64,000 bases of DNA from Chiloscyllium plagiosum (GCF_004010195.1 NC_057718.1:105265683-105329682), one strand, 5' to 3'; positions 15,185 to 64,000 are shown, numbered from the stretch's first letter. The notes: generated by a model from the letters alone, not told the origin. Program-made: numbers and translations.

Positions 15185-16730
15185 TAGGAATGCATCCCAG
15201 GGTACTAAAAGAGATGGCAGGAGAAATAGCAAGTGCACTGGTGGTAATTTTCCAAAATTCGCTTGATTCTGGGGCAGTCCCAGCAGATTGGAAAACATCA
15301 AATGTGACACCACTATTTGAAAAAAGGTAGACAAAAGATGGGGAATTATAGACCGGTTAGCTTAAACTCTGTAGTGGGGAAGATACTTTAGTCTATTATC
15401 AAGGAAGAGATAGCAAGGCATCTCGATAAAAATTGACGCAGTGTGGGCTCACGGAGGGCAGGTCATGCTTAACAAATCTTTTGGAATTCTATGAGAAAGT
15501 GAGGACTGCAAATGCTGGAGATCAGAGTCGAGAGTGTGGTGTTGGAAAAGCACAGCAGGTCAGGCAGCATCCAAGGAACGGGAGAATCGATATTTCAAGC
15601 AAGGTAGACAACAGGGACCCAGTGGATGTAGCGTACCTAGATTTCCAAAAGGCCTTCGACAAGGTGCCACACAAGATAAAGATGCATGGCATTAGTGGTA
15701 AAGTATTAGCATGGATAGAGGATTGGTTGACCAACAGGAAGCAAAGATGGGGGTAAATTACTGCTATTCTGGCTGGTAATCAGTGACTAGTGGTGTGCAT
15801 CAGGGATTGGTGTTGGGACTGCAATTATTCACAAATTATATAGATGATCTGGAGTTGGGGACCATGTGTAGTGTGTCAAAGTTTATGGATGACACTAGGG
15901 TAAGTGGCAGAACAAATTAAGCAGAGGAACATACATACATTGAGTTGGCAAAGGTCTGGCAGATGGAATATAACGTTAATAAATGTGAAGTCATCCATTT
16001 TGGTCAGAGTAACAATAAAAAGGATTATTACTTGAATGGGAAAACGTAGCATGCTGCCATGCAGAGGGACCTGGGTGTCCTTGTGCGTGAATCACAGAAG
16101 GTTCGTCTGCAGGTACAAGTAATTGGAATGTTCTCCTTCATTGCTAAAAGGATTGAGTTTAAAAAGCAGGGAGGTTATGTTGTAGCTGTATAGGGTGCTG
16201 GAGAGGCCACACCTGGATACTGTGTGTAGTTTTGGTCTCCTTACTTGAGAAAAGATATACTGGCACTGGAGGGGGTGCAGAAGAGGTTCCCTGGATTGTT
16301 TCTGGAGTTGAGGGGTTTGGCTTATGAGGAGAGGCTGAGTAGACTGGGATTATATTCATTGGAATTCACAAGAATGAGGGGGAATCTTATAGGGACATAA
16401 AATTATGAAGGGAACAGATAAGATAGAAGTAGGATGGATGCTTCCACTGGCAGGTGAAACTAGGACAAGAGGGCATAGCCTCAAGATTAGAGGAAGCAGA
16501 TTTAGGACTGAACTGAGAAGGAATCTATGGAATTCCTTGCCCAGTGAAGTAGTTGACGCTGCTTCAGTAAACGTTTTTAAAGCTAAGATGTTTTTGAACA
16601 ATAAAGGAATTAAGGGATACAGTGAGAGCATAGATAAGTAGATCCGAGTCCACAGCCATGATCTTATTGAATGGCGGAGCACGCTCGAAGGGCCAGATGG
16701 CCTACTCCTGCACCTAGTTCTTATGATCAC
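15185..16730 (+). mobile_element. CR1-type LINE carrying a ~100-bp PLE-derived insertion (~15500-15598)
   Basis: GMHPRVLKEMAGEIA, SCLTNLLEFYE, VDVAYLDFQKAFDKVPH, TRGHSLKIRG. Confidence 0.9.
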
Positions 16731-18315
16731 ATGCCCCAAAATACACCCCAATTAACACCTCAGTCACTTGCCCTGCCTGGTTTCCCCAAAAGAAGATCAA
16801 GTATTAGTCCTTCTCTAATATATACAACCTCATATTGAATAAGAAAGTTTTCTTGTAACACTTAGATACCTCCCCATCCAAGCCTTTTAACACTATGATA
16901 GTCCAACTCTGCTGGGAAAGTTAAAATCTCCTACCATTACAACCTTATCATTCTTACAGGTGTAAGAGATCTCCTTACATATTTGGTTCTCAATTTACTG
17001 ATAAGGTGACAATCCCTTTCTTATTTCTCAGTTCCACCCAAATAACTTCACTCAATGTACTTCCTGGAATATCTTCCTTAAGCACAGCTGTAATGTTATC
17101 CCTAACCAAAAAAGCCACTCCCCCTCCTCTCCTGCATCCCTTTCTATGGCATCTATACTCCAGAACATTAAGCTGCCAGCCCTGAACCATGATTCTGTAA
17201 TAGCTGTGATATCCAAGTCCCAAATTCCCAACTATGCCCTACATTCATCTGCCTTTTACCTGTCAGGCCTCTTGTATTGAACTAAATGCAGTTTATCAGT
17301 CTTATGGCTTGCTCTTCTTATCTACCATATCAGACACATCTATCAGCTAATGAAGGAGTGGCGCTCCGAAAGCTAGTGTGCTTCCAATTAAACCTGTTGG
17401 ACTATAACCTGGTTTGTGTGGTTTTTAACTTCGTATCAGACACAGCTTTTTTTCCTTACTCACTATCACTTTAAAGTTTAAAGCTTCCCCAGTTGATTTA
17501 GATTAGTTTGGATTAGATTCCCTGCAGTGTGGAAACAGGCCCTTCGGCCCAACACCGACCCTCTGAACATAACCTTCAACTCCACGTTCCCACCTATAAT
17601 CCCCAATTACCTCTGATTTAAAAAGTCTCTTTCAGCCTTCTGACAAAAAAAATCCTCCTTTTTTCTGTCTTACTTATACTATATCCTCAGTCTTAAATTT
17701 TTCCATAAGTGTAAACATCAGTTGTTTCACCCAAATAACTTCACTCAACGTACTCCCTGGAATATCTTCCCTAAGCACAGCTGTAATATTATCATTACTT
17801 TTCTTATTAGTCAGAAATTGCAATTAACATAACACATCTCCTAACAAAACAGGATATATTTGCAGTTAAAAAGATAGCAAGACTTGATATTTTAAAGCTT
17901 CTGTTTACTACTTACTTTACAGAGACTACAGTTAACAAAGTTTGCATTTCTAACATGCTGCATTGTTAAAAATGGTCCTGAATGAATGAATCACAACAAT
18001 TAAACTACTATAGTACACAGTCAAAATGCCAAAGTACACAATATAAAGCATTTAAGGCAATTACATACTGCAATGAAAGCCCACATATAGAATTTTTACC
18101 AACTTGTTTCAAATGCTGCCCCATACAATCTAAAAACTGAGAAATATGCTGCCACTGGACAATGCTATTTCAAGTTGGATATTAAATTTTTATGCCTGTC
18201 ATGCATGACCTAACAGACAGTGCATTTTGTCATGTTTCACAATTGTGAAATTCCTTGTTATAGCCCTTCAACAAATTCTACAAAACTCAGAGAATTAATC
18301 GCTTCATAACTGGCA

Positions 18316-18689
18316 GGAACAGAGAGTGATCCGGTCCCAGGGACAGACCACAAACCGGGACAGAGTGTGATCCCGTCCCGGGGCAAACCACAAACCGGGA
18401 CAGAGTGTGATCCCGTCCCGGGGACAGAGTGTGATCCCGTCCCGGGGACAGACCACAAACCGGGACAGAGTGTGATCCCGTCCCAGAGACGGGCCACAAA
18501 CCGGGACAGAGTGTGATCCCGTCTCGGGGACAGAGTGTGATCCCGTCTCGGGGACAGACCACAAACCGGGACAGAGTGTGATCCCGTCTCGGGGACAGAC
18601 CACAAACCGGGACAGAGTGTGATCCCGTCCCAGAGACGGGCCACAAACCGGGACAGAGTGTGATCCCGTCCCGGGAACAGACCACAAAA
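18316..18689. repeat. GC-rich modular minisatellite (~24-bp module A plus ~17-bp module B)
   Basis: 10 copies of GGGACAGAGTGTGATCCCGTCYC and 8 of GRGACRGRCCACAAACC-like modules; explains the repetitive ORFs at 18258-18824. Confidence 0.95.
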
Positions 18690-18749
18690 TAAAGGGAAAG
18701 CTATGAAACCCTTGGCTGAAGTAACAAAAAGCTCAGATTCCTTGAGTTC

Positions 18750-19420
18750 TCCCGGTGCGGGGGGGGAGGGGGGAAGGAGTGGGGAAAGGGGGGGTGGGGG
18801 GAGAGGCCGGTTGCCCGCTCTCACCTGTCGCCATGGTGCCGCTGGGCGCGAGCCGGGACAGCCAGCTCCCGCTCCCTCTCAGGCGGGACTGGGGCACCGG
18901 GAGCCGGCCCCTGGAGGCGGCACGGGCGGGGCGGGGCGGGGCGGGGGAAACTGACAACCGGCCCCGCCCCCGGCGCGCCGCTGCAGCCAGGCGGTGAGCG
19001 CGGCAGAAAACGCGCTCCCGAGGCAGGAGGCGCCGGGCGCGATGCGCGCTCCCGTCCCCGGGGGCAGGGTCCGGTCTCAGATCACGGCCTTACCGCCCTC
19101 GCAGTTTGACCTCTGACGGGGGAGAGGACGCCCCGTGAAGCGGGGAAGTCCGGATCAGGGTTTGAGGGGGGTGTCCGGCTGGGAGGGCGGGGGGAGTGGC
19201 CGGGCGGGGGAGGGGAGGGGGTCCGCGTCTCTGGGATTGAAGGGGGTCCCTGATCCCGCTCGCGCTCCCACCTTCGCACTCCGGTGGACAGCCAGCTGAT
19301 TAGTCCCCGCCCCCTCTTGCATTCCTATCGGTTCGCCGCAGCGACGGACAGGCGGTACAGCCTATCAACGATCGGCACGTCGGCCTCACGTCAGACGTGG
19401 GTGAAGGAGAGATGAGAGAT
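18750..19420 (-). promoter_or_regulatory. UGP2: CpG island / UGP2 promoter with tandem GC boxes
   Basis: Very GC- and CpG-rich; tandem GGGGC repeats (Sp1 boxes) at ~18924-18946; CRE/ATF-like CACGTCAGACGTGG ~19387-19400. Confidence 0.8.
18825..18834 (-). CDS. UGP2: UGP2 coding first exon (ATG GCG ACA G)
   Basis: ggcaccATGG Kozak followed by ACAG|gtgaga, inside the CpG island. The phase-1 end matches the phase-1 start of the exon at 7513. Confidence 0.75.
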
Positions 19421-21904
19421 GGGAGATGGGGGATGGGGGATGGGGGAGGAGTGGGCCGTTCAGCTGTTGGTGTGAGGCGAGGCAACATCCGAGGAGCAAA
19501 AGTCCTTCATCAGGAATAGAGGCAGGAAGCCTCCAGGGTGGGGATCGCATGTGTTACTCAGTCTACACTTCAGGAGAGTTCAATGGGAGACTGTTTCTTA
19601 TGTTGCATCACGCTTTAGAAATTCAAAGTTAATATAATATTTTAAAAGAATGTTAAAGAGAGTGAACCAGTGTATGCATTGAGTGAAACCAAACAGTATT
19701 GTACTGTCTATTCAATCTTAGGAATAGTTCTGCCCTAGTTAGGATAAGGATAAGCTCCTGAGGGAGCTTGAAAGTGTAGATGTGGAAAGGATGTTTCCTT
19801 TTGTTAAAGAATCTAGAACTAGGGGTCAAAGATTAAAAATAAAGGGACACTCAATAAGGAGCCAAGGCTTGGTGTGGATTGGAGTCTACGTGACAGTGTG
19901 GTCTGGGGTTGGAAGGCCATTGTCCTGAACTATTATTTCTGCAAAGCTGAACTTTTTACTTCTCTATTTCCTAAGATCTTGTAACTAAAGAAGCTGTACC
20001 TAGGTATCTTTCTACCTAAGATGCTGCTATAAATGGTGATTTATAAATGTTTTACTGTCCTCATTTGAGTAAGTGACAATAAAGCTAATTCAATTAAGAT
20101 GGAGATGAGGAAACATTTTCTCTCATAGGATTGGGATTCTTTGGCATTCCCTTCCTCAAAAGTCAGTGGATGTGGAACCTTTAACATTTTTTCTTAGGCC
20201 AAGGTAGATAGATTCTTAATGATGATGTGGATAAGCGAATATCTTTGTTACACAGTAATGTAGAAACATAGATGATAGGATCAGGAGGAGGCCATTCAGC
20301 CCTTTGAGCCTGCTTCACCATTCATCACAATCATAGCTGATCGTTCAAGTCAATAGCTTAATCCTGCTTTCTCCCCATAACCTTTTATCCCTTTGCCCCA
20401 AGTGTTACATCTAGCCGCCTCTTGAATACATTCAATTTTTTGGCACCAACTACTTCCTGTGGTAATGAATTCCACAGGTTCACCATTCTTGGTGAAGAAA
20501 TGTCTCCTCATCTCTGTCCTAAATGGTCCACCCTGAATCCTCAGACTGTGACCCCTGATTCTGGATACACCGTCATCAGGAACATCTTCCTTTCATCTAC
20601 CCTGTCTAGTCCTGTTAGAATTTTATAAGTCTCTATGAGAACAGAGTTGACATTGAAAGCATTTTAGCTTTGATCTTGTTGAATGGAAGAGCAGACTTGA
20701 ACAGCCTACTCTTCTGGATCGTTGTTCGAATGAGAGAAAGAAACATTGTCTTGTGATGGAAAGCACAAATTCCAATGTCAATATAATTATAATGTAATGA
20801 TTGATGTAAATACAAACCTTTGTAACTGAGTTTCTAAGAAAATTAAGAGCAAAGTACAGTGTAAAGACAGTCTTTAAATTGATTTAATTTATATATTACC
20901 ATCTGTCTGAGCATTGTCTGACACACCTCTGTGGCCATGGCCATGGCCATCATTTAATGAAGTGCTTTTTGAACCTAGACACGAGATCCGCAGGTGAGTT
21001 TACACATAGGTTATTATTACAGACCAAGGGGAGAATCAGCACATTGATGTTAAATATTTTATATTCAACCTGTTGAGAAATGTTATTACACACATCTGGA
21101 GCAGGTGGGATTTGAACCCAGGTCTCCAAGTCCAGGGGTAGCGACACAGCCCCTGCACATTCATTTAAGGAAACTTATTCAGACACAGAATTTACATGAG
21201 GTTCAATTTAAAGGAAATTGTCACAATGGGAGTGTGGAGAGATATATATACATAAATCCTTTTGAAAGATTCCTTGCCCTGTGATTTGTCAATTGGCAGG
21301 AACAAAACAAAAATCAGAACAAAAAAATCATCCATTTGGAGACCTGAGCTGACTGGCTCTGTCACCTGTGTAGCTACGTGATACATTGTAACCAGAGTTT
21401 TTTCTGATAGCAATCCTTACTTTACTAATTCAGAACCAAGTACAATATTTCCTTAATCACTGAGGTGTGACAGGATCTGAAATTGTGATTGGTGGAATCT
21501 GGGGTATGGCTTAAGATATTTCATTGTCCTTAAGCCTTCTGTAAAATGACACTATGTTCTTCCAAAGAATGCTATTTAGTCAGATGCTCTGCCTGTTTTG
21601 TTGTGCCCTTCAGAAGCAATCCAACTTGGGGAATCGGAGCTGCCACATGCATTAATCATCTGCCAAAAAAAAAGCTTTGATCACTTGTCCCTGTAAATCA
21701 AGTTGTGATGTTAAATCCTCTTGTGAGAAAATCCAGAATTAGGAATCACTGAGGGTCCTCTATTTACAATGGAGATGAGAATTAGTTTTTTGACAGAGGG
21801 TCATGAGTCTTTGGAACTGTTTTCCTCTAAACATGGTGGAATGCTTGAATATTTTTAAAGCAGAAGTAGGTAGAATCTTGTTGAGTTTGGAATTAAAGGT
21901 TTTT

Positions 21905-25973: not shown

Positions 25974-26054
25974 TGACTTCAATTATGTGTTTATTTCATA
26001 TAAATTCCAATTATTAATTGGAATTAATATGAAATAAACACATAATTGAAGTCA
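25974..26054. repeat. Near-perfect 81-bp AT-rich palindrome
   Basis: 40-bp arms, 1-nt centre at 26014, one mismatch. Confidence 0.95.
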
Positions 26055-29305: not shown

Positions 29306-29943
29306 ATATAAAACTTTTAAAAAAGAAATTTGAATTTCCAGTTAAAACGTTATGGATGTCACAAGATTTCATAGTTTAAGATGATTTCTGTAATAATTAA
29401 GATTATTACTCGAGCAGAAAGCAATTTTAAAGGAAATGATATGTTCCCTTTATCACAAGAGAACCAGGATACAGGAACTAAGAAGTCCTGTTTCAAGTTT
29501 ATAGAACATTGGTGAAACTGCACCTAGAATACTGGTCACCCTAACTAAAGAAGGAAATACATGCCATAGATGGCCTGTAGTTAGGGTTGACCAGACTAAT
29601 TTCTGGGATGGTGGGACTGTAGTCTCTGGAATGTAGAAGAATGAAAGGTGATCTGATGGAAATTTATAAAATTCCTAAAGGGGTTGACATAGTCAATTTA
29701 GAAAGGATGTTTCCCCTGGATGTGAAGTATACCCTTAGTGGACACAGCCTCAGAATGGGAGAAACAGAGATTTAAAAAAAGAATGAAAGAGACAGAGCCT
29801 GAGATAGAGTGGGTCCCCTGATATCCCATTTATGTGACCCAAGTTAAATTTTGTTTGACGTTTCTGTGAAGCTCTGTTGCACATTTTAATGATTGAAAGT
29901 TGCTGTTTAAACATAAGATGTTGCTCTTGTAGATTGCTGATTC

Positions 29944-31405
29944 AAAATCACACAACACCAGATTATAGTCCAACTGGTTTATTTGGAAGTACAGGCTTTC
30001 AGAGCATTGCTCCTTCGTCAGGTAGCTAATGGAGCAGGATCATAGGACACAGAATTTATAGGAAAAAAATCAAAGTGTTGTACAGCTGATGCAATGTATT
30101 GAACAAACCTAGATTGCTGTGAAGTCTTTAATCACTTAGAATGGGGAGCATGATGTGGAGATGCTGGTGTTGGACTGGGGTGGAGAAAGTTAAAAATCAC
30201 ACAACACCAGGTCACAACCACCTGATGAAGGAGCAGCGTTCCAAAAGCTAGTGCTTCCAAATAAACCTGTTGGACTATAACCTGGTGTAGTGTGATTTTT
30301 AATGCAGGTTTTAACTGATTAATGTGTAAATCCCAGAACGTCTTTCAAGTCTCAGGCCCGAGATAACTTATAAGGTTTTATAAAAAGAAAAGTGACATCT
30401 CAGCTCAGACAAAGCATTAAAGATGTGAGTCTGTCTGTATCACAACCTTGAGTTAGACTGGTTCTATTTCCAAGGTAGGAATTTATAAAATATCACATGG
30501 ACTAACTGCCTATAGATTGGTTGCTTTTTGAACAAAAGAGAATATATCTGCAAACACAAATCTGCAAATGCAAATTCACCCCATAGACCTATATGCGTGT
30601 GTGAGGCAGAGAGAGGGAGACTCTGTATTTGTGTGTGTGTGTATGAACCCAAGATCTCAGCTGAGGCCATCCTCATGGGTACTGAACATGGCTATCAGCC
30701 TCTGCTCGGCACTTTGCGTTGCTGAGTATCGCAGTCTGCCATAGAGGATGATCACCTAAAGATCCGAGACCAAATGTCCTTGACTGTTGAAGTGGTCTCC
30801 GACTGGGAGGAAACATTCCTGTCTGGCAATTGTTGCATGGTGTCCATTCATCCGATATTGTAGTGTCTGTCTGGACTTGCCAATACCGTATACCATGCCT
30901 CAGGGCATCCTTGCCTGCAGCGTGTGAGATAGACAACACAGATACATTCTATTTTGTTCAAAAAAACACAGTCTGTAGACAGTCAGTCCATGTGCCATTT
31001 TATAAATTCCTACTTTGGAAGTAGAACCTGTCTGACTCAAGATTGGGATACAGACAGACTCTAACCTCACACCTTTAATGGATTGTCTGAGCTGAGATGT
31101 CACCTTTTTTTATAAAACCTTAAGCTAGCTCAGGCCTGAGACTTGAAAAAATTTCTGGGGTTTACACATTAATCAATCAAAACCTGCATCCCCATTCTAA
31201 GTGATTAAAGATTTCACAGCAATCTAGGTTTGTTAGCAGACCAACTAACAGTACGCCATCAGTTGTACAATACTTGATCTTTTACTATAATTTCTGTATC
31301 CTAAGATCCTGCCCCACTAACTACCTGATGAAGCAGCAGCGCTCCAAAAGCTAGTGCTTCCGAATAAACCTGTTGGACTATACCCTGGTGTTGTGTGATT
31401 TTTAA
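29944..31405. mobile_element. Penelope-like element with ~470-bp inverted terminal arms and a central GIY-YIG remnant
   Basis: 29944-30555 is the reverse complement of 30938-31404, apart from a nested insert at 30147-30302. The minus-strand centre encodes IGKSRQTLQYRMNGHHATIARQECFLPVGDHFNSQGH. Confidence 0.85.
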
Positions 31406-31408
31406 CCA

Positions 31409-32835
31409 TGTCTTCTCTGCAGCAGTTTGTTCACTGGATCTATCTATCTCTGTGTTTGTTGATAGCCTTTTTGGTAGAAGCCAGATTTCTAAGAACTCTC
31501 TGAGGTGTCTCTGATTGGCATGTCCTAAAATGGTTACTTTGTCATAGCGAATTGATGGCTCTTTTGGTCTGTGTGTATGGAGTTGAGGAAGAGTGAATCA
31601 TGTGGTTTAGTTGCCAGTTGGTCTTCGTGAAGTCAGATGGCTAGTTTTCTTCCTGTTTGACTGATGTAGTGCTTGTTGATTTTATATACCATTGGCCAGA
31701 TATACTGACAAATCAATGACACACCGATGGGCTCTTCCATCTCAGGACTATTAGAAGAAGCAGTCATGCAGAGACTAGAGAACTCAGCCCTTCCTCTGAT
31801 CCAACTATGGATACAATACATGGACAACACATTTGTTGTCATCAAATGTACAATACTGGAGGAAACACACCACCTCATTAACAATATACTCACCAGTATC
31901 AGGCTCACTAGGGAGGAAGAGAACAACAACAACCAACTCCCTTTCCTAGATGTCATGGTAGAATGGATGCCCAATGGAGGATTTACAACCAAAGTATCCA
32001 GGAAAGCCACCCACACGGACCAGATCCTCAACTACAACAGCAATCATCCCAATGTCCATAAACAGAGCTGTGTCAGGACACTATTCAAAAGAGCCAAGAC
32101 ACACTGCAACACACCAGAACTGTGCAAGGAAGAGGAAGAACTCTTATACAAAGTCTTTGCTAACAACGGATACCCCATCAGCTTCGTCCGCCGATGCCTG
32201 TCCACTAGACAATGCCAAGAAGACACTGTACTTACCAACACATTGGCCACCATTCCCTCTGCAAAGCTGTTACAACCACTAGGTATTATGGGAGCACACT
32301 AACTAACACTACACCAACTACTTACCAGGAGAAAGGACCCCATACCCACAGCGTGCAGGACCAATGTGGTATCCAAAATCCCCTGCAACAACTACAACAA
32401 GCACTACATTGGACAAACAGGAAGAAAACTAGCCATCCAATTTCACAAACACGACTGACAACTAAACAGCATGATCCACTCTCCCTCATCTCTGTACACA
32501 CAGACCAAGAGGCCATTAAATCGATTATGACAAGGTAACCATTCTAGGACAAGCCAACCAGAGACATGCAAGAGTTCTCAGATGCCTGGCTTTCTAACAA
32601 AAAGGCGATCAACAGATAGACCCAGTGTACAAACCACTGCAGAGAAGACTCAGAAGTGACACATACCCCAACAGAGCAGAACCACATAAAAACCAAATGG
32701 GACAGAACAACAGTGCTTCATGGGGGTCATGCTGATGATGTTAACCAACATGGTAATGGAATGTCTGCACGATAACCCAGCAACTTGACAAGCTAACCAG
32801 CTCCCACACGCACAACCCGAGCAACAGCTCTTCGC
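31409..32835 (+). mobile_element. Penelope-like element (RT plus GIY-YIG) preceded by an inverted copy of its own 3' region
   Basis: ORF 31727: MGSSISG..QYMDNTF..QLPFLDV..RKATHTDQILNYNSNHP; GIY-YIG segment HYIGQTGRKL at ~32400; inverted copy 31409-31690 (KHYISQTGRKL). Confidence 0.9.
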
Positions 32836-34419
32836 GAAAACCTTAAAAGTTTTATCTAGTGCCAATCCAACAATTCAAATCCCTCCAGAATGTCTCCATT
32901 GAAGCTACCTCCATCACATTCAAAAGCAGCACATTCCACTTGCTGGAAGAAAAGGTGTTTCCTCATTTCACTTTTTTGCTTCTTTTGTCAATTACTTTCA
33001 ATCTGTGACCGCTTGTTCTTAATCTTTTCATTAATGTAAACATTTTCTCCCGATCTATTCTGTGGACACTCAGGACTTTGAATACTTCCATTAAATCCCC
33101 TCTTAATCTCATTAGGTGAAAAGAAAACAAAGTTCTGCTGTCTAGCTACATAACTAAAGTTTCGCATCCTCAGAATTATTGTTGTAATTGTTTTCTGTAC
33201 CTTTTCGAATGTCTTCACATCATTTCTAAAGTATGGTTCTCAGAAACTGCTTGCAATACTCCACCTGAAATTTGTGTATTCTACCTTAGTTTCACACTTA
33301 GCTAGCTTTTATACTCTTTACTCCTATTAATAAAGTTCAAGATGCTCTATATTTTATTAACCACCATCTCAACCTGTTCTGCCATTTTTTATGCACACAT
33401 ACATTCATGCCCTGGGTATTCCCACATTGACTTTAGACTACTCCATTTATTTTATACTGTCTCTGTGTCCTTTTCATAAAAAACAAAAACCTCACATTTC
33501 TCTGCATCTTCATCTGCAACATATCTGGCCATTGCATCAAGTTGTCAATGTCCTTTTGAATTTTTACACTGGCCTCAGTTCACAATGCTTTGTATCAAGT
33601 CTGTCAATATTGAAATTGTGTTACTTACAGCAAAGTCTAGATCATTAATATACATCCGGAAAAGCAAGGGTCTCAGCACTGACCCCTCGGAAACTCCGCT
33701 ACACACTTCCCATAAAACAGAAAAAAAAATTGTCTATTTACAAAAATTCTCTGGGTGAGTGATGGGAACGATTTAGAATGCACGGTGCCTTTAACGACCT
33801 CTCCGCAGGGGAGCCGCTTTGTCACTAACACAGAGGTAAATTATTCTTGCAGTTAAATGCAAACTTGGACGAGATTCCAGAAACAGATTAACTCTTAAAA
33901 TTCCCTAACTTACCAAATACACAGAATTAAACATTCCATCTTGTTGCAGTCAAAACAGCCAATTCATGCATCACTCAGCGGCAGCAAGAGAAAATAATTT
34001 TGATACATTAGAAATTGACATCCACACATTCTTCTTTCCCAACACAAACTATTTGTACAACTGATTTGTGCCGGTTAATACAATTGTTAGCTACGTATAA
34101 CATGTATAAATTAACTTTTCTGTAGTGATTGGAATGCTCACTGTAGTGTTTGAGTTTAAAGTAGCACATGATCCCCATCTAGTGGTTACTGTGTGGATGG
34201 CTTCACCTTGCACATTGCATCTCCAATTAAATTGCACGTTGAGAATAAATGTATTTCAGTGCTACACATCAAGGGACCATTTCGAAGTTTAGATTAGATT
34301 TCCGACAGTAAAATCCCCATGTATCGAGTTTGCAAATCTCAGCTGTATTGCTATGAGGAGGTCATCAACTTTGGTTAAAGGCACTGTTGGTGGTTTAATC
34401 TGTAATGTCATGCAAAAGG

Positions 34420-34995
34420 ACACAGTGACTCTGGTTAATAGTGCTGCCTGACAGCGATGTGGTCTTCTCTAAGTCGGGGAGACCAAACGTAAACTCACGG
34501 CACGTTTGGCAGACATCTCAGCCTGGCCCACAGGAGCCAATTGACCTCCCAGGCACTGCCCATTTTAATTCCCCTTCCCACTCCGTTTCCATCCTGGGCC
34601 TCCTCCATTGACACAGTGAATCAAACCGCATATTGGAGGAACAACACCTCATCTTCTGCCTGGGCATCCTACATTGAGTTCTCCAGTTTAAAGTAACCTT
34701 TAAATGTGGAGTTTGCACATTCTCCCTGTGTCTGCATGAGTTTCCTCCCACAATCCAAAGATGTGCATGTCTGGAGAATTGGCAATGCTAAATTGCCCAT
34801 AGTGTTCGGGGATGTGTAGGTTAGGTGCATTAGTAATAGGATAAGGGAATGGTAAAAGTGAGTACTGCAGATGCGGGAGATCAAAGTTGAGAGTGTGGTG
34901 CTGGAAAAGAATGGGTCTGGGTAGGATACTCTTCAGAGGGTCGGTATGGATTTGTTGGGCCAAATGGCCTGTTTCCATACTGTCGGGATTCTATG
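34420..34995 (+). mobile_element. HE1-type SINE interrupted by a PLE GIY-YIG fragment (~34465-34690)
   Basis: Degenerate tRNA head at 34420; VGETKRKLTARLADI and LEEQHLIFCLG-coding insert; V-domain resumes ~34704. Confidence 0.7.
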
Positions 34996-36819: not shown

Positions 36820-37127
36820 CTGAAAATGTGTTGCTGGAATAGCGTAGCAGGTCAGGCAGCATCCAAGGAGCAGGAGAATCGACATTTCGGGCATGAGCCC
36901 TTCTTCAGGAATCTGACTCCATCTATTGGCGCACCGATCTTTACACCGCTGAGGCTAAACGCCAGCTCATGGACACCTCCTCCTACTGCCCCCTTGACCA
37001 TGACCCCACCTCCCACCACCAAACCATCATCTCCCAGACCATCCATAACCTCATCTCCTCAGGGGATCTCCCATCTACCGCCTCCAACCTCATAGTCCCA
37101 CAACCCCGCACCGCCCGTTTCTACCCC
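36820..37127. mobile_element. Short inverted PLE insertion with 22-bp TSD
   Basis: CCAGGCCATCTCATATTTATAG at 36798-36819 and 37128-37149; minus-strand PLE 3' end joined to plus-strand RT fragment (DTSSYCPLDHDPT...PRTARFY). Confidence 0.85.
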
Positions 37128-42871: not shown

Positions 42872-42999
42872 CTGTACAAAAAAAAGTCAGATAAAACAAA
42901 AAACTGCAGAGCTCAACTCACAGAGAAAGCAGAGTTAACATTTCAAGCCCACTTACCCTTCTTCAGAAGGTGAAGGAAGAATCAGAGTTTCCTACCTAC

Positions 43000-45865: not shown

Positions 45866-45913
45866 TTACAAAGCAACAGGATTAGATCTTACAGTACACA
45901 GGAATAATGAAGG

Positions 45914-45950
45914 GTTCCTGACGAAGGGCTTATGCCCGAAATGTCGATTC
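45914..45950 (+). ncRNA. Minimal hammerhead ribozyme motif (PLE-associated)
   Basis: CUGACGA-A-GGGC-UUAU-GCCC-GAAA-UG-UC-GAUU. Confidence 0.55.
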
Positions 45951-46258
45951 TGCTGCTCCTCGGATGCTGCCTGACCTGCTGTGCTTTTCCAGCACCACTC
46001 TCTAGACTCTGATCTCCAGCATCTGCAGTCAGCATGGAAACTCACTTTCCCCTATGGGAGTAATGTTTGCAATGATACCCATGTAGCAAGGTGTAAACTG
46101 GGGAATAAACTTGTTAGTTAGTGTGGGTGGAAGCAGAAAATAAACCATCTAAACAGAGACAGAGCATTTTAAATGGATGGCATATCCAACAGATCATTCA
46201 ATCCTAGGAGACAGAGTTAGTGTAAAGGTAGCCAAGTTCAAGTAATTCGTTAACATAC

Positions 46259-46372: not shown

Positions 46373-48088
46373 CTGTTGGCAGGGGGAAAAAAAGTTTAGT
46401 TTTCCAACTGGTTACATGCAGCAGGTTGTGTGCAATGCAGGAATCGCTTTCTTCTTCCTCACTCCTTCTGGAAAGTTTTGTTGGGCTATGGTAATGCTGG
46501 GGCACTTCACAACGTCTACCGTAAGAAACTAAATACATGCAAGTCTATGAACAACAGAGAAAACAACTGGATGGCAACAAATATTTAGAAAACTATCAAA
46601 AGTAAGCACAGGAAATAATTTCACACAAGTATTTGTGAACTGTACATTTTTTAAAACAAAGAAGCTCAAGCCTGACATCGAAATGAGTAATTTGAAATTA
46701 AGCCACAAACAAACATTGTTTTGAACCACAATCAACCTCAGGTGAATGGACAATGTCACATGAACAAAACATTAGCAACATACAGTTACAAATACATGAA
46801 GGCAACAATGTTGAGGGATCTGATAAAAACCATTTGGTGCTCTATTTAAAATCAAAATGCAAAATCTGTCTCATAACATGTTTCTGGACAGAAGGAAACA
46901 TTGTTATTTTTAAGTTATTCATTTTTCATAACCTCTGGGAAGACATTTGCTGCATTTAGTGTAGCATTCAAAGAACAGATTGCAGTTTCTGTTCAGTCAC
47001 AGAATTCAATGCAAATGTAAAGTGAACATGCTCACCGAGCTGGGAATTTGGTTTGCAGATGTTTTGTCCCCTTTCTAGGTGACATCCTGTGTGCTGTGGA
47101 GCTGCCTGTGAAACATTACTGCATTGTGTTGGTTGGAATTTAAAGTGAACATTTAGCTGACACAGCTTAATAAATGTAGAGTGCTTTGGTTAACGGTACT
47201 TCTAAATATCCTTTGCCTGAGAAAACACAGTTCTGGCATGGTTTCCGATATCCTTCATCTGTTCAGAAATCAATGGGAATATTCCTTAGCTCTCCCCAAT
47301 TCCAATTTCTTAAGTTGCACACAAGCACGAGTCAGGAACTGTCAAAATGAAATAAATAGTACCCAGAATGCTTAACAGTTTGGGCAATATTCGAAGGGTT
47401 TATGTCAGAAACGTCGATTCTCCTGCTCCTTGGATGCTACCCGAGCTGCTGTGCTTTTCCAGCACAACACAACTCTGATCTCCAGCACCTGTAATTCTCA
47501 CTTTCTTCCAATATTTGAAGGGGTGGCAAAAGAAGGCAAAAGGGATAATGTTTCATGTGGAGATGTGAAGCATTAACTGTAGCTGTCCAGCAATGCTGGC
47601 AGATCGGTTGAGTATTTCTGACATTCTTTGATGATTCCAACATTTGCAGCATTTTTGCTTTTGCAGTCAAAATAAGATTTTTTTTGTGCCAAGTTTAGAA
47701 TGATGCAGATTAGGAAGGCAGCTAACTTAGATCCTATACTATACTGAGTTATCAGTGTCAGGTACACATTCACACAAATAATACTTGGTGAAAGTTTGCA
47801 TTGGAGAAGACAAAACAGATTTCAGCTGTTAAGACCAATGCAGGTGGCCAACTGACATCTCCTGTCAAATACAACAACGACCACCTTAGGGACAGTCTGG
47901 CAAGATTATTCAATAGGAGATCAAAACCTTGCTCTGCACAAAATAACCCAGTCATAATATCCACAGCACTGTCAGTTTTAAGTAAAATTCAACGAAGTGA
48001 ATGCGTGTCTTTGAAAAACCACAAAAGAAATTGAACTTGGAAGGTCTTCACAATAAACATTATGAAAACGAGTTCTGAAGTTACTTAC

Positions 48089-52300: not shown

Positions 52301-53370
52301 GGAATCTACTTTGGGAAAAAAAAAGGAGGAATTCTTTCTCTCCTCTCTCTCCTCCTTCTGCTCCTAGTTTAGATGATCTCTTTATTCAATTTTTTTTTAT
52401 TCCATCGAATTACATAGTAATAAACTGCATCTGTCAACGACAGCACCAATTATCCCTGTCCTTCTGAATCAAGGAAGCATCTATAGAGAAAATCTTAATA
52501 TTTGACAAAAATGACCAGATGGTTCTGATGAAAGGTTACTGACATGAAGAGTTCACAGTTTCTCTCTAAGCAATTTGAGTTTATACTTCACAATTCCAAC
52601 AATCAAGTGCTTTGGGACCTGTTACATTATTTCTTTCTCATTTATTTAATTTATTCATCTTTTATTAAAATGAACTTGGCATGCTTTATTTCCAATCGCC
52701 ATTGGATTGATTTATTTCAAACGTAGCTTCAGTCCCAAAAGTGATCCACGGAGTACCCCTCTCAATCTCATTCTAGTCTGTAAGACTTCAATCAGACCTT
52801 CTAAGCCAATTGTCTGCCCTCTGCTATCAATTAGCCTATTTTCACTTTTGAAAACTCTTTCCACTAAGAACCATAAGGACAATCCAAGTATATAAATATT
52901 AATCTTTGTTTAAATAAGGTCTCTAACAAGTTATAATATCCAAATACAGAAATAAAAGTACAGTGGATGCTGGATCTGAAATAAGCTCAAACATTCTCAC
53001 AAAAGGTCATTAGCCTGAAATGCTTGCTTGATTCCTTTCCCCAGAGGTGATGCCAGAGGTGTTGAAAAGTTCTAGTATTTTCTTTCTACTTTCCAAACGC
53101 TCATTCACTGGACCCCTACATTAATTCTATGCCATCCACTAGATTCCTATATTAACTCAATTTTTCTGACAGTTGGTGAGGCTTATAGCTCCCAGGGTGT
53201 TTTGTTTAACAGCAGTTTTTGACTTAGCTACTTCCTGTTCCTTAGGAACCTCTCCTGAATTTGGGAAGATTAAGAAGAAAATGGCAAAACGTTACTAGTC
53301 CAAATCAAATACACAGTTACACATTCAGTATGAAGATGGTGGCATTTAACAAATTCCAAGGCTTTGTCAC

Positions 53371-56883: not shown

Positions 56884-57703
56884 AAAATTATCTTCAGAGT
56901 ATGTTGCTTGACTATTTTGCTTTTGCATATGCAGTATATTAACCTTGCTAATTTAAAAAAAAACATTCTGTAGGTTAGGAACTGCCACCTTCAACTCACA
57001 AGAGACCAAAAAAACTACAGATGCTGGAATCCAAAATAGACAGGCAGGAGACTGGAAGAATATAGCAAGCCATGCAGCATCAGGAGGTGGAGAAGTCGAC
57101 ATTTTGGGTGTAACCCTTCTTCAGGACTGGGGGTGGATATGGAGGGAGCTACAGATAAAGGGGGTGGCGCGGGCAGGGTGGTGAAGTGGGAGTAGATGAA
57201 GACAGGTAGAGGGTAGAAGCTGGTTGGCCAATGGGAGGAATGAATCCAGTTGGTGGCTGAGAGGGGTGGAGGGAGGGGGAGGGGCAGGGAAGAGAGCCAG
57301 GGGATGGGGAGGGAGGTTATTTGAAATTGGAGAACTCAACATTGAGTCCTCCGGGCTGTTGGCTGCTGAGGCGGAAGAGGAGGTGTTGCTCATCCTATTT
57401 GCAGTGTGCTTCATTGCAACAATGGAGGCAAAAGATGGTCATGTCAGAAAGGAAGTGGGTAAGAAAATTAAATTGGGTGGTGACTGGGAGGTCCGTTCGG
57501 TGCTTGTGGGCCCAGCTGAGATACTTAGCGAACTGTTCCCCAAGTTTATATTCGGTCTCCCAGATGTAGAGAAGCCCACACCTGATGCAGTAAGCTAGGT
57601 TAGAAGGGAGGTAAAAACAATGACTGCAGATGCTGGAAACCAGATTCTGGATTAGCGCTGCTGGAAGAGCACAGCAGTTCAGGCAGCATCCAAGGAGCAG
57701 CGA

Positions 57704-57739
57704 AATCAACGTTTCGGGCAAAAGCCCTTCATCAGGAAT
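57704..57739 (-). ncRNA. Minimal type-I hammerhead ribozyme motif (PLE-associated)
   Basis: Minus strand reads UAUUC-CUGAUGA-A-GGGC-UUUU-GCCC-GAAA-CG-UU-GAUU: intact core, 4-bp stem II and palindromic ACGU stem III; stem I is weak. Confidence 0.65.
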
Positions 57740-57788
57740 AAAGGCAGAGAGCCTGAAGCGTGGAGAGATAAGCTAGAGGAGGGTGGGG

Positions 57789-58151
57789 NNNNNNNNNNNN
57801 NNNNNNNNNNNNNNNNNNNNNNNNNNNNNNNNNNNNNNNNNNNNNNNNNNNNNNNNNNNNNNNNNNNNNNNNNNNNNNNNNNNNNNNNNNNNNNNNNNNN
57901 NNNNNNNNNNNNNNNNNNNNNNNNNNNNNNNNNNNNNNNNNNNNNNNNNNNNNNNNNNNNNNNNNNNNNNNNNNNNNNNNNNNNNNNNNNNNNNNNNNNN
58001 NNNNNNNNNNNNNNNNNNNNNNNNNNNNNNNNNNNNNNNNNNNNNNNNNNNNNNNNNNNNNNNNNNNNNNNNNNNNNNNNNNNNNNNNNNNNNNNNNNNN
58101 NNNNNNNNNNNNNNNNNNNNNNNNNNNNNNNNNNNNNNNNNNNNNNNNNNN
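57789..58151. other. Assembly gap (N run) within a PLE
   Basis: Run of n. Confidence 1.
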
Positions 58152-60632
58152 CAGGCAGTCACGGAGGGAACGGTCTTTGCGGAAGGCGGAAAGGGGTGGG
58201 GAGGGAAATATATCCCTCGTGGTGGGGTCTTTTTGGAGGTGGCGGAAATGTCGGCAGATGATTTGGTTTATGCGAAGGTTGGTAGGGTGGAAGGTGAGCT
58301 CCGGTTGCAAGGGAAGGTACCTTGGGGTTCAGGGGTGGTTGGTGAGGAGAGTGCGCAAACCAAGGATTGTTGATGGGAACAGTCCTTGCAGAAGGCAGAG
58401 AGGGGTGGAGAGGGGAAGATTTTTTTTGTGGGGGAGGGGTCTATTTGGAGTTGGCAGAAATGTTTAAGGGTGATGTGTTGGATGTGGAAACTGGAGGTGT
58501 GGTAGGTGATGACAAGGGGGGCTTTGTCTTTATTGCGTTGGGAAGAGGAGGGGGTTTAAGAGCAGTGGAACGGAAACCTGGGGTGATGCGCGGAGGGCTG
58601 TCTGGATGACAGAGGGAGGAAAAGCACGATGCTCAAAATAGGTGAGCACCCGGGATGCTCAAGAGGAAGGTCTTCTCACCTGAGCAAATGCAGCGGGTGA
58701 GTTGGGAAAATGGGATGAAGTTTTTGCAAGATACTGGGTGGGAGGTGGTGTAGTCCAGGTATTTATAGGAGTCTGTGGGTTGGTTGTAAACATCTGTTTG
58801 GAGACTGTTGCCAGAGACGGAGGTGGTGAGGTCCAGAAAGGGGAGGTAGGTGTCCAAGATGAACCAAGTGAATTTGAGGGTGGGTGGAAGTTGCAGGTGA
58901 AGTTGATGAACTGCTTCAGTTCAGCCCGGGTGCAGCGTCCTGCACCCATGCAGTCATCAATTTAACAGAAGAGGAGCTGGGGCCTCCTCCATTACTGCAA
59001 ATTGGAGGGACACCACCTCATCTTCCGCCTGAGCAGTCTACAGCCTGGAGAACTCAACACTGAGTTCCCTTCCACCAACTGGATTCATTCCTCCCATTGA
59101 CCTACCAGGTCGTACCTCTACCTGTCTTCACCTATCTCCACTATCCCGACTTGACTACCCTGTCCCCGCCGGCCCCTTTATCTGCAGTTCCCCATACACC
59201 CAATCCCAGACCTGAAGAAGGGTTACACCTGAAATGTTGACTTCTCCACTTCCTGATGCTGCCTGGCTTGCTGTGTTCTTCCAGCCTCCTGCCTGTCTAT
59301 CTTCAACTCACTGCCCACATAAAATTTTATTATATGTGAATAATACCAAATTGCAGAAACCGTATTGAAATTATTTCTGTAACCTGTAGGCAGTTGTGTT
59401 TTGAATATCAAGACTTGGTGCACCTTGATGACACCATCCAAAATCAACTTTGACAAAAGAACCACAATAGTTACACAAAAATAAACAAATCTTGAGGTCA
59501 TTCCATTTCGACCACACCTTCAGAACTCTCAGAAGGAATCTTCCATTGAAAGCAAGGTATACAGACAATCAGAAATCATTTCATCCAAGCCTTACATAGG
59601 CCTTTCAATGTCTGAACTTCAAGACAATTATAGCCAGTTACAGTTAGAATCAAGATACAAATCTGACTCTGATCTCTTTGCTAACTAAACCGACATGCTT
59701 TTTGCTTCCTCCTTCAAAATAACTTCTCTAAATATCAAATTCTCTCCTAATGGGAAAAAAATCTCTTAAGTCTATTGCCAGTTTATAACATTTCCTTTCT
59801 CAGTAAAAAGATCCTCCATTTAATAATATGTTCTACTTTGCATAAGCATCCATGATTTTCAATCATTAGTTTCTCAAAGATACACATTCTCAAAACTGAC
59901 TGTCTAAAAACTCTGGAAATTCGACACATTTAGCATGCCATGCATCATCCTTCCAGTTAAAGTTAACCTACCTAGGCAATTCAGCAGAGTTGCAAATGGC
60001 AGTGGACTTATCATCTGATTGACCAGTTGTACACCAGACTAGTCCCACACACAAATTAAAAATTTGACCCCACCTGTATAACCCACTGTCCAAAGTCAGA
60101 CAAAATAACCTTGCTTTCACATCCAGCTGATTTGAGAGGAACTTGCAGCATTCCTATTCATCTGACCTTGGAGGTGAATATTGTGCGTCATTTCCAGAAT
60201 CTAATTCTTAACTGAAGGTTAAATAGCACACATTAACCATCAACATCTCAGTGAAAGCTCAGAAACCCAATGTATTTTTAGTTTGGTGTTTTATCTTGCA
60301 AGCTGAAACAAACTATTTCACGTTACTGAGCCAGAGGGAGCCATTTCTAAATCATGAACTACCCATTAGTTAATGCCTACCTATCGCAGTGGCCTAGATA
60401 TCTAGTTAAATTTTAAAAAGCTAAAGGTTTACAGTGAAGAAATAACACAAACTAGGTCCAAATGACATTGAGAAATATTGTGTGCAATATACAACAGCAA
60501 CTGAGACACTGACCATTATACATCAAATAATAGTTGACATCTATAAGTACTGACCATTGAGGTGAATGTAAAACAGTGAGAGAGATACTGACCATCCTAA
60601 GCTCTACATAAAACAGTGAGACAGATACTAAC

Positions 60633-61420: not shown

Positions 61421-61619
61421 CATGTACAAGGAGGATAGAATATCAATCGTGATCTGAAATTGTTGAACCCATTACTGAGTACAGGACATTAAGTGATTAA
61501 TTGGAACCTGAAGTTCTGCCCATGATGTGCCCTCATGGTTTTCTCCCACTATATTCTTCATCCTCTTCAATTACCCTGAAGTAATTGTTTAATGCGTGGG
61601 TTTGTCTGGTTAGCACAAT

Positions 61620-62055
61620 AGAGACATAACATCATAGAGATGTACAGCACGGAAACAGACCCTTCGATCCAAACCGTCCATGCCGACCAGATATCCCAAC
61701 CCAATCTAGTCCCACCTGCCAGCACCCGGCCCATATCCTTCCAAACCCTTCCTATTCATATACCGATCCAAATGCCTCTTACATGTTGCAATTGTACCAG
61801 CCTCCACCACTTCCTCTGGCAGCTCATTCCATACATGTACCATCCTATGTATGAAAAAGTTGCCGCTTAGGTCTCTTTTACATCTTTCCCCTCTATGCCC
61901 TCTAGTTCGGACTCCTTGACCTTGGGGAAAAGACTTTGCCTATTTATCCTGTTCATGCCCGTCATAATTTTGTAAACCTCTATAAGGTCACCTCTCAGCC
62001 TCTGACGCTCCAGGGAAAACAGCCCCAGCCTGTTCAGCCTCTCCCTATAGCTCTA
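61620..62055 (-). mobile_element. CR1/HER1 LINE 3' end
   Basis: Near-identical to the reverse complement of 28870-29300. Confidence 0.85.
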
Positions 62056-64000
62056 ATATGAAACAATGTTTTTCACTATATCTCGATACATGTGATAATA
62101 ATAAATCAAATCACAGTTTCCTCAAGAGAAAAGTCATTGCTGTGGAAATCATGATCAACACAGCCTTCCAACTTAATGCTGGGATTCTATGGGCTGGTAA
62201 ACTCATTAGAAATCTGGCCACTTAATTCCCTAATGCACAAATTGATGTTTTAAAAGAATAAATTGAAGTCTTTAATTAGAAGTAGCTAAATTTTTTTGAA
62301 AGTCTTTGCTTCCTGTATTAAGCATTGAGAACTGGAACAATATTTGAAACTAGTGATAATTCAAACAGTAGCACTGATGTTGAAATACAATTATTCAGGG
62401 CTTTATTAGAATTGATGCACAGAACACACAGCCTGTAGTTTATTACAAATTTGAGTTTATATTCCAGCAGTTAATGAACAAAGCCTTGCCCTAACTCCTT
62501 AAATCATTCCCATAAATCACAGGGAAGAGTTTTGCAATTTTGTATATTTTGTAGTCATATTCTATTCAGTTATATTTTATTGTTTTTTTTTGAGGAGTGA
62601 TATATAACAGTGAATGTTAAGTGATCCCACTTATTTGATATCTGATTGCCATGTCAGTTGAACAGGAGGAAGGGATGTTTTGTGAAGTAAAAAAAACAGA
62701 GATAACTGGAGAAATTCTAGAGGTCCAAACTTGGTCTAAAGAAGAGTTACTGGACCAAAAATATTGACCTTGCTTTCTGTCCACAGATGCTGCCAGACCT
62801 GCTGAATTTCTTCACCTATTTCTGTTTTTGTTTCAGATTTCAAGTATCCACAGTTCTTTGTTTAATATTCTATGTATTGTGGGATAGTTGGTAGCATCCT
62901 TACCTCGAGGCCAGAAGCTCCAAGTTCAAGTTCCCATCAGCACTTGCTAATTGTCTTTTGATAATGTCTGTTGAATATTTATTTTTAAATTACTGCTTTA
63001 GGTTTAAAAAGAAGTAAATTGAATCTGAAAGTAGACTGGAAGGATACTAAGCTATAATGTCCATGCACTATAATGATTCTGTTTAATCAAAGATATTGTG
63101 AAATTTTAAATGTTTAGATTTGATTGAACTTGTTTTCTTGTTTTGAAATTGGATCTGAAAATATGGATTTTACATACTTCTTTATACATAATAAGGCATC
63201 CTTTTTTAGAATGAAGTCTGGAGATTTTGTGTTCTGTTTAAAAGTTTAAAATAAAATGCATAGCATTTCTGATCTATTGTTTAGAAGAAATATTTTAATA
63301 CATGCTAAAGATAGTTTGATTGGGTAATAAAGGATAGTGATATGGTTTTTACTATGCAAATAAAATCCAAATATAATTCTGTTCCATCTGACTTTATCCA
63401 TGTTTTTATTTGTGTAAAAACTATTAATGGCAATACAAAATCTGTAATAAAATCAATAAGTTACAGATATTTATTGTACATTTTACTCTATTTTCTTAGT
63501 TTTCATAACAGGTGCTTTCAAAAGTTACAAAGGTTAACATATAGAGGGGGTTAAGAATATTTAATCATTCACAGTTATAGAGCATAGCCAATGAGCCTTT
63601 GTTAATTTTGTACTGTACATGTCACTGCAGGACTAAACAAAGTGATTATTTTTCTGGTGCTTGCAGGGTGAGCAAAATACAGGATTTAAAGATTTTCTTT
63701 CTTAAAAGATCAAACTGGTATATTTATAAAACAGAAATGCTACAAATACACATCAGCTCCATAATTTCAAAAGAGAAAAGATTAGTTAACGTAGAAATCC
63801 TTTGTTAGAACTGTATCAACATGTTTGGTACATTTAGTGTTGAATAGATATATATAGAAATATTGCAAGAACATTAAAATAACTTGACAACAATGTAGGA
63901 CAGGAAGCCAATCGTTAAATTCCATCTTGACAATTAACAATGGAGCAGTATGTTGGTAGATTGAGTTGTGTATCTAGTTATGTTGTGCAAAGGCAAGGGA

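What the first reader, a model, noticed from the sequence alone, without database searches (positions are those of the whole stretch)
15500..62860. Dispersed ~100-130 nt hammerhead-headed mini-elements (Penelope-derived, retrozyme/SINE-like)
Seen: more than 10 motifs of the form CUGANGA-[stem II]-GAAA-NN-UH, intact or decayed, at ~17345(+), 19500(-), 30000(-), 30222(+), 31325(+), 36880(-), 42950(-), 44450(-), 44486(+), 45270(-), 45918(+), 52525(+), 57105(-), 57711(-), 59212(+), 62735(+). They fall in at least two families (downstream GATGCTGCCTGACCTGCTG or AAACCTGTTGGACTATAACCTGG). Several solo copies with no flanking coding sequence (45914, 45297, 44480, 52521, 17343) appear to start only a few nt upstream of the CUGANGA core. 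Established: Penelope-like elements carry minimal hammerheads with a palindromic stem III thought to act as dimers. Inference: cleavage occurs 3' of the core, so it would not by itself create this shared 5' boundary. The pattern suggests either a non-autonomous ribozyme-headed short element mobilised by PLE RT, or systematic RT stalling at the ribozyme fold.
Basis: partly seen in the sequence, partly recalled or inferred. Interest (0 to 1): 0.75.

Follow-up and report, generated by a model that had tools for sequence, protein, structure and literature searches.

The report
Penelope stubs starting at hammerhead edge
These short repeats in a shark-like genome are the tail ends of Penelope-like jumping genes, a known kind of debris, but many stop sharply just upstream of their small hammerhead ribozyme motif, likely because the element's RNA begins there.

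Summary
The motifs are real: 5 complete minimal hammerheads against 0 in 12 shuffles; 15 of the 16 listed sites belong to four repeat families, and a fifth family was missed. They are not shown to be a separate SINE or retrozyme class: four of the five families have long copies joined to Penelope-like coding sequence in this window, and 5 of the 16 sites are such long copies. The shared 5' edge holds: 8 of 22 arms end 0-9 bases upstream of CUGANGA, and genome-wide it is the top listed loose-end site in DNA contigs of two species (804 and 767 contigs). It is not the cut site. Best reading (0.5): reverse transcription starts at the internal 'tail' site and runs off an RNA 5' end at helix I. Added here: an initiator-like TCAKTY sits at this spot in 5 of 26 non-shark families against 3 of 286 background windows. 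No RNA 5' end was mapped. This scan noted the same edge before on this genome (e1-7858200, e1-7858061, e1-7858714). Known kind, one open and testable property.

The parts
45915..46053 (+). Family A short copy, complete hammerhead core at 45918, 5' edge at -3, long tail
36820..37127 (.). One insertion: family A short arm (36820-36912, - strand, 5' edge at -4, complete core at 36908) joined to an inverted piece of PLE reverse transcriptase gene (+ strand), between a perfect 22-bp target duplication (36798-36819, 37128-37149)
44387..44601 (.). Head-to-head pair of family A short arms (cores 44477- and 44486+; edges -9 and 0); both arms share the same stem II variant
47392..47508 (+). Family A copy starting inside the core (about +5), 14-bp target duplication with 1 mismatch
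15493..15609 (-). Family A copy starting at about +17, inserted in another repeat
34845..34909 (-). Family A tail only (starts at +66)
19481..19544 (-). Family A remnant, edge at about -29, GAAA half deleted
57607..58305 (-). Long family A copy (core 57735, complete) with coding sequence running into the N gap 57789-58151, nested inside the family C element
57005..59306 (.). Family C PLE: RT and GIY-YIG-like coding remnants on - (about 58990-57320), end repeat with core 57124-, and an inverted arm 58993-59306 (+) with complete core 59212
29938..31408 (.). Family B head-to-head element: - arm 30938-29938 (core 30021; its far end reads by eye like a GIY-YIG C-terminus) and + arm 30939-31408 (core 31325, edge -386)
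30148..30302 (.). Family B short unit nested in the long B arm: inverted long-tail piece (30148-30214) plus short arm (core 30222+, edge about -6)
17342..17433 (+). Family B short copy (decayed core 17347, edge -6..0), 14-bp target duplication with 1 mismatch
45186..45297 (-). Family D short copy (decayed core 45293, edge about -4)
62733..62857 (+). Family D short copy (decayed core 62736, edge about -2)
42890..42968 (-). D-like copy with complete core at 42966, in sense orientation about 20 bases upstream of a splice acceptor of the cytosolic malate dehydrogenase gene
3524..3708 (.).
31410..32850 (+).
47030..47136 (-).
52522..52575 (+). CUGAUGA with decayed downstream part; family membership not supported

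Best explanation
The short repeats are end pieces of at least five Penelope-like retrotransposon families, and their shared 5' edge likely marks the 5' end of the element's own RNA, predicted to be a transcription start at the first bases of hammerhead helix I. Shown: long and short copies share the hammerhead-plus-tail module, two 3' end positions, head-to-head pairs and target duplications; the 5' edge lies 0-9 bases upstream of CUGANGA and not at the cut site. Established for the anole element: RT starts internally at two tail sites about 100 bases downstream of the hammerhead and copies to the template's 5' end. Inferred: in a tandem PLE the same module lies at the front of the messenger RNA, so priming at that front tail site gives an 85-135 base run-off copy, while priming at the rear site gives the long, randomly truncated copies; two cDNAs primed from the two nicked strands join head to head. 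The genomic copies are mostly decayed relics (5 of 15 keep a whole core).
For: Window: 8 of 22 arms stop at -9..0 (8 stops in 122 nt copied, against 6 in 1,355 nt downstream and 3 in 1,784 nt upstream; Poisson P 1e-7, interval chosen after seeing the data); 6 of 18 without family D (P 5e-6). Genome-wide (stretch 57000-57788): loose ends at 57739 (-4 of family A) in 804 contigs of X1, 767 of X15 (a second species), 275 reads of X21 and 111 contigs of X23, with unrelated flanks (agreement 0.32-0.44); opposite-strand joints at the same place (22 and 18 contigs); raw-read depth falls to 8.5% (family A) and 13.5% (family C, then nearly flat for 200 bases) upstream of the core. The long 3' end at +126 (320 and 272 contigs) matches the anole RT start 111-118 bases into an ORF that begins at stem II (PMC11167929). 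An initiator-like YCA lies at the edge in shark families A (TCATTC) and C (CCAGTC), A at -4; family D shows CAGTT in one copy. In 26 non-shark PLE families TCAKTY has its A at -9..-3 in 5, against 3 of 286 upstream windows (Fisher P 1e-4); local shuffle P 0.0008, joint top of 360 reorderings, about 4 of 21 after clustering relatives. Four of 14 second arms in those loci end at -5 to -15 (L107, L118, L082, L109).
Against: No RNA 5' end was observed: the one raw RNA run is single-cell poly(A), shows no begin/end pile-up, both strands about equally, and 96% of reads run on into unlike flanks. In the only mapped Penelope, D. virilis, the start lies 46 bases upstream of a 75-base intron (PMC2377424) whose end is at helix I (PMC4209133), i.e. 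about 120 bases upstream of the edge. 21 of 26 non-shark families lack TCAKTY and 17 lack the looser BBCABW; three of the five hits (TCAGTC) read equally as splice acceptors. The loose letters at -4 begin with the same four bases in all four runs, so many copies reach -8, and one window arm reaches -9, upstream of the proposed start; the reference differs from most copies at -5, so ends from -4 to about -12 collapse on one place. 10 of 14 non-shark arms end elsewhere. No full-length shark element was available. Window breakpoints were placed by eye.
Confidence: 0.5

Rival explanations
1. Short copies carry their own internal promoter and are re-copied in trans, so they are a true non-autonomous, SINE-like lineage (compatible with the same RNA start).
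For: About 85-90% of core-bearing reads do not extend upstream. Family D has no long copy among its 4 well-supported arms, 7 with the weaker ones. Penelope has an internal promoter (PMC2377424); non-autonomous Chlamys PLEs are described (PMC8557442).
Against: Families A, B, C and E have long coding copies with the same module in this window. No discrete small RNA seen in X21, which is weak because the library is poly(A) single-cell. No subfamily of short copies with its own diagnostic changes was shown.
Confidence: 0.17
2. The RNA is trimmed from its 5' end by an exonuclease until the hammerhead fold, or the PLE protein bound on it, blocks it; RT then runs off the trimmed end.
For: A few bases of spread just outside helix I; the anole protein binds this region and assists the ribozyme (PMC11167929); a ribozyme fold at the 5' end of R2 templates improves insertion, suggested to act against 5' degradation (PMC11331408, abstract only).
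Against: It does not predict the initiator-like motif. As single strands the five copies folded are not reliably more stable than shuffles (z -1.9 to +1.7), though these are decayed copies.
Confidence: 0.13
3. A 3' splice site just upstream of the core sets the edge (spliced template or a splicing intermediate).
For: In D. virilis the intron ends at helix I (PMC4209133). Families B and C have a pyrimidine run plus YAG within 6 bases of the core; YAG is mildly enriched in non-shark families (9 of 26 against 43 of 286, P 0.016).
Against: Spliced copies should share an upstream exon, but flanks beyond the edge are unrelated (agreement 0.32-0.34 in DNA contigs) and target duplications abut the edge. 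Family A has no AG there. YYNYAG is not enriched (2 of 26, P 0.33). No GT..AG joint among the 15 of 368 joint rows shown.
Confidence: 0.08
4. RT stalls or switches template at the ribozyme fold.
For: Inversion joints also concentrate at the edge; in family A the bases upstream can pair with the core as an alternative hairpin (copy 57735).
Against: The edge is on the far side of the fold for an enzyme moving 3' to 5' along the RNA; in vitro product length followed the template 5' end through the hammerhead and ribozyme mutants did not change it (PMC11167929; a different family). The upstream hairpin is not evident in B, C or D (sequence).
Confidence: 0.09
5. Ordinary random 5' truncation, with the edge produced by looking only at copies that keep the core, or by ribozyme cleavage.
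For: Six of 22 arms start inside the module and eight upstream; reference mismatches sharpen the pile-up.
Against: Stop rate per base at -9..0 is about 15 times that inside the module and about 40 times that upstream, counting core-less copies too; depth shows a step then a plateau; the cut site is 30 bases away.
Confidence: 0.03

Closest known systems
Minimal hammerheads (min-HHR) of metazoan Penelope-like elements (Cervera and De la Pena 2014, PMC4209133; parts 1-2 of 4 read)
   Same: CUGANGA core, unpaired base before stem II, G10.1-C11.1, palindromic helix III, short helix I; thousands of mostly single motifs 'probably related to truncated PLEs' and pairs on opposite strands; several families per genome.
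   Different: That paper reports no shark and, in the parts read, no shared 5' edge or initiator-like motif.
Insertion structure of endonuclease-bearing PLEs (Craig et al. 2021, PMC8557442, passages; Arkhipova et al. 2013, PMC3846280, part 2 of 5) and internal RT initiation of anole Poseidon (Frangieh et al. 2024, PMC11167929, main text)
   Same: Heavy 5' truncation, inverted 5'-truncated arm, optional 30-40 bp tail giving two 3' ends, variable target duplications, solo end repeats.
   Different: 5' truncation is described there as variable; here most copies stop at one edge. Frangieh's Fig. S2 coverage plot could not be seen and may bear on this.
Non-LTR retrozymes of animals (Cervera and De la Pena 2020, PMC7229834, passages; Li, Clavereau and Pollet 2026, 10.64898/2026.07.22.740005, parts 1-3 of 5)
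   Same: Type I hammerhead, derived from PLE end repeats, dispersed monomers occur, present in a chondrichthyan.
   Different: Retrozymes are defined by head-to-tail tandem units; none here. Copies here are single or head-to-head and end at PLE tail sites.
D. virilis Penelope promoter (Schostak et al. 2008, PMC2377424; passages and Discussion)
   Same: Promoter in the end repeat drives the downstream tandem copy; TATA-less, with initiator and downstream element.
   Different: Its start is about 120 bases upstream of helix I with an intron between; the start proposed here would be at helix I itself.

Membership tests
PLE minimal hammerhead (min-HHR) | CUGANGA ... GAAA-NN-UH core with stem II and one unpaired base before it | tested here: met
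   5 complete sites against 0 in 12 shuffles; stem II pairs 3 and 4 kept in 15 of 15 copies with several pair types
PLE minimal hammerhead (min-HHR) | Palindromic helix III dinucleotide for dimer folding | tested here: met
   CG or GC, or a wobble derivative, in 13 of 15 copies
PLE minimal hammerhead (min-HHR) | Lies in the end repeat of a PLE with RT and GIY-YIG coding sequence | tested here: met
   Family E by tblastn with shark PLE proteins; C by a weak tblastn hit and translation; A and B by translation read by eye; D has no long copy here
PLE minimal hammerhead (min-HHR) | Self-cleavage as dimer or with protein help | not testable with these tools
   Bench assay; no cut-site pile-up among the rows shown
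EN+ PLE truncated insertion | Two 3' ends about 30-40 bases apart (tail), inverted arm, variable target duplication | tested here: met
   3' ends near +83/+125 (B) and +88-101/+126 (A); four head-to-head units and two elements with inverted arms; duplications above chance at 4 of 15 intervals scanned
Neptune versus Poseidon clade | RT phylogeny and cysteine linker | not tested
   E is called Poseidon-type and A-C Neptune-like from recalled motifs; no tree was built
Non-LTR retrozyme | Head-to-tail tandem units each with a hammerhead | tested here: not met
   No tandem array over any motif in the window; genome-wide not tested
Non-LTR retrozyme | Small linear and circular RNAs made by self-cleavage | tested here: inconclusive
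   Poly(A) single-cell reads run on into flanks on both strands; the library cannot show such RNAs
SINE-like non-autonomous element | Short copies descend from short master copies with their own promoter | not testable with these tools
   No whole genome held; needs a tree of all copies

The most novel reading that the evidence does not exclude
In many Penelope-like elements the messenger RNA starts at the first base of hammerhead helix I, so the 'ribozyme' is the 5' cap-proximal module of the RNA; the element's RT primes at the tail site just behind it and sheds hundreds of thousands of strong-stop-like stubs, some of which keep the internal promoter and spread as a hammerhead-headed SINE class, with the genome's breakpoint map serving as a fossil map of transcription starts.
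Probability: 0.3. Interest if true: 0.65.

Novelty: new member of a known kind. Interest (0 to 1): 0.38.

Why it matters
The motif, its host elements and its abundance as solo copies have been known since 2014. What the PLE hammerhead is for, and how PLE insertions get their ends, is still open (Craig 2021 and Frangieh 2024 say so in the passages read). A sharp, cleavage-independent edge at helix I, seen in two shark-like species and hinted at in other animals, with an initiator-like motif on it, turns that question into a simple test: map capped 5' ends and assay the module as a promoter. If it fails, the copies remain ordinary retroelement debris.

Tried and rejected
No whole genome is held for this window. 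Rfam at E<=1 gave no hammerhead. Pfam found no domain in the PLE fragments tried; of 14 frames only one other LINE piece and the malate dehydrogenase end hit. Family A patterns found 0 matches in metagenome contigs and viral contigs; the 38 matches in prokaryote genomes align over at most 39 bases and are treated as chance. No PLE relative in viral contigs. No protein relative for the 70-residue GIY-YIG-like piece of family C. No RNA holder listed among indexed runs; X23 is only guessed to be RNA. Single-strand folding of five copies gave no consistent stability over shuffles and not the hammerhead fold. Cleavage as the cause of the edge: rejected (30 bases away). Tandem retrozyme: rejected for this window. 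A fixed initiator-to-ACGT spacing like the Drosophila downstream element: considered by eye, spacing varies between families, dropped. A lariat branch-point stop: considered, dropped because a purine-rich core follows instead of a pyrimidine tract. Paper searches that found no report of the shared edge or of an initiator at the hammerhead; subscription papers (Arkhipova 2006, Lunse 2017; recalled, not seen) and Repbase/Dfam entries are outside the library. Term search in Frangieh's text supplements found nothing; its figures and the bioRxiv supplements of Li 2026 were not seen and may bear on novelty.


Full report
Setting. The window is vertebrate DNA of a shark-like genome: a PLE reading frame at 31709-32299 is 62-65% identical to Chiloscyllium punctatum proteins, and two exons on the minus strand match cytosolic malate dehydrogenase. 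No whole genome is held. Positions below are counted from the C of CUGANGA (0).

The motifs. A strict minimal-hammerhead descriptor finds 5 sites against 0 in 12 shuffles, and 14 against 0-4 with one core mismatch. Rfam has no matching model. The 16 listed places all hold the motif or a decayed form; 15 belong to four families (A-D) by BLAST and nhmmer; 52525 is not recovered by the D profile. Between families stem II changes sequence and keeps pairing (pairs 3 and 4 in 15 of 15 copies), and the helix III dinucleotide pairs in 13 of 15; only 5 of 15 keep the whole core (one mis-registered row left out). This is the min-HHR of Cervera and De la Pena 2014, who already noted mostly single motifs from truncated PLEs and pairs on opposite strands.

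What the copies are. Four families have long copies here. E sits behind an RT and GIY-YIG frame. C runs from RT remnants at about 58990 through a GIY-YIG-like frame to the core at 57124, with an inverted arm at 58993-59306; a long A copy is nested in it. B forms a head-to-head element with arms of about 760 and 386 bases upstream of the core. The labels GIY-YIG-like for A-C and the clade names are from translations read by eye and recalled motifs; no tree was built. Short and long copies share two 3' ends about 30-40 bases apart, the PLE tail (Craig 2021). Target duplications above chance flank 4 of 15 intervals scanned, including a perfect 22-mer around a short A arm joined to an inverted RT piece (35 of 37 random intervals scored 4-8). 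The two arms at 44477/44486 share one stem II variant, as expected if both came from one template. There is no tandem array over any motif. So the short copies are PLE end pieces and do not meet the definition of retrozymes.

The 5' edge. Of 22 well-supported arms, 8 stop at -9..0, 6 inside the module (+1..+70) and 8 further upstream; stops per base are 0.066, 0.0044 and 0.0017 (Poisson P 1e-7). With three weaker D-like copies it is 11 of 25, and without family D 6 of 18. The interval was chosen after seeing the data and the edges were placed by eye. The independent test is: four runs laid on 57000-57788, which holds A and C with upstream sequence. The place 57739 (-4 of A) is the top listed loose-end row in X1 (804 contigs) and in X15, a second species (767), and the second in X21 (275 reads) and X23 (111); the letters beyond are unrelated apart from the first four. 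Opposite-strand joints fall on the same place (22 and 18 contigs). In raw reads depth drops to 8.5% upstream of A and 13.5% upstream of C, then stays nearly flat. Limits: 24 of 2,247 loose-end rows are shown; the reference differs from most copies at -5, so resolution is about -4 to -12; other subfamilies' upstream sequence would not align, which may overstate the drop for A; for C only a small pile (13 contigs at -2, X23) is listed. The predicted cut (+27 to +30) is not among the shown rows and has 1 of 25 window arms.

Mechanism. For anole Poseidon, purified protein starts reverse transcription internally at two sites about 100 bases downstream of the hammerhead, nicks and extends both DNA strands, gives products whose length follows the template's 5' end, and is indifferent to ribozyme mutations (Frangieh 2024). 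The shark long end at +126 fits that geometry. In a tandem PLE the end repeat is also the promoter and 5' part of the next copy's RNA (Schostak 2008). If that RNA starts at helix I, priming at the front tail site yields exactly these stubs. I tested one prediction on independent DNA: 80 PLE loci from metagenome contigs, 33 with a minimal hammerhead, 26 families after dropping duplicate and doubtful rows (11 of 37 rows). The initiator consensus TCAKTY (recalled) has its A at -9..-3 in 5 of 26 against 3 of 286 upstream windows (P 1e-4), BBCABW in 9 of 26 against 31 of 286 (P 0.002); local shuffles give P 0.0008 and 0.006, the motif is joint top of 360 reorderings, and about 4 of 21 remain after clustering relatives. 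Shark A and C have TCATTC and CCAGTC with A at -4. Four of 14 second arms in the non-shark loci end at -5 to -15; one (L109) is a direct copy upstream of the coding region.

Against. No RNA 5' end was seen; X21 is poly(A) single-cell RNA, with no begin/end pile-up, both strands, and 96% of reads running into flanks, which looks like passive read-through. D. virilis Penelope starts about 120 bases upstream of helix I, with an intron ending at helix I, so the model is not universal and a splice-linked reading remains; three of the five motif hits also read as acceptors, though YYNYAG is not enriched and no shared upstream exon appears. Most non-shark families lack the motif and most of their arms end elsewhere. 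Exonuclease trimming to a protected fold (by analogy with R2 templates, abstract) and self-propagating short masters, best for family D, are not excluded.

Novelty. The elements are a new member of a known kind. My paper searches found no report of the shared edge or the initiator-like motif, but figures, preprint supplements, subscription papers and repeat databases were not seen. Earlier notes of this scan describe the same families and the same edge on this genome, two of them with the same 'RNA begins there' reading; I had written that reading before opening them, and they are not independent support. None of the notes shown names an initiator test. Interest 0.38.

Noticed in passing
window 42890-42968 (-), acceptor at about 42869: A D-like copy with a complete hammerhead core lies in sense orientation in a malate dehydrogenase intron, its T-rich tail ending about 20 bases before the splice acceptor.
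   Followed up: partly
window 57607-58305 in 57005-59306; 30148-30302 in 29938-30938; 29938-31408 abutting 31410-32850: PLE copies are nested in or abut other PLE copies three times in 64 kb, which may reflect a target preference for PLE sequence.
   Followed up: no
window 45897-45917 and 17342-17346: A few bases at the 5' junction of two short copies read as a tiny inverted copy of the core region (fold-back), though small deletions explain 17347 equally well.
   Followed up: no
window 3524-3596 (-): One family D arm begins about 2 bases from the predicted cut site; single case, expected by chance about once in two such windows.
   Followed up: partly
window 57724-57747 (-): In family A the bases just upstream of the core can pair with the core itself, an alternative hairpin that would switch the ribozyme off in RNAs that start further upstream.
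   Followed up: partly
window 18319-18688: GC-rich minisatellite of 24/41/65-base units next to a CpG-rich stretch (18700-19500) that looks like a gene start.
   Followed up: no
window 25976-26052: Near-perfect AT-rich 77-base palindrome (weak microRNA-family scores, below thresholds).
   Followed up: no
   Followed up: partly
L109 3773-7315, L113 3208-3708: Non-shark PLEs with a 4-base helix III insert (CGCG); in L109 a direct hammerhead copy about 2 kb upstream of the matched coding region starts at -15 after an A-rich flank, a candidate 5'-complete element.
   Followed up: partly
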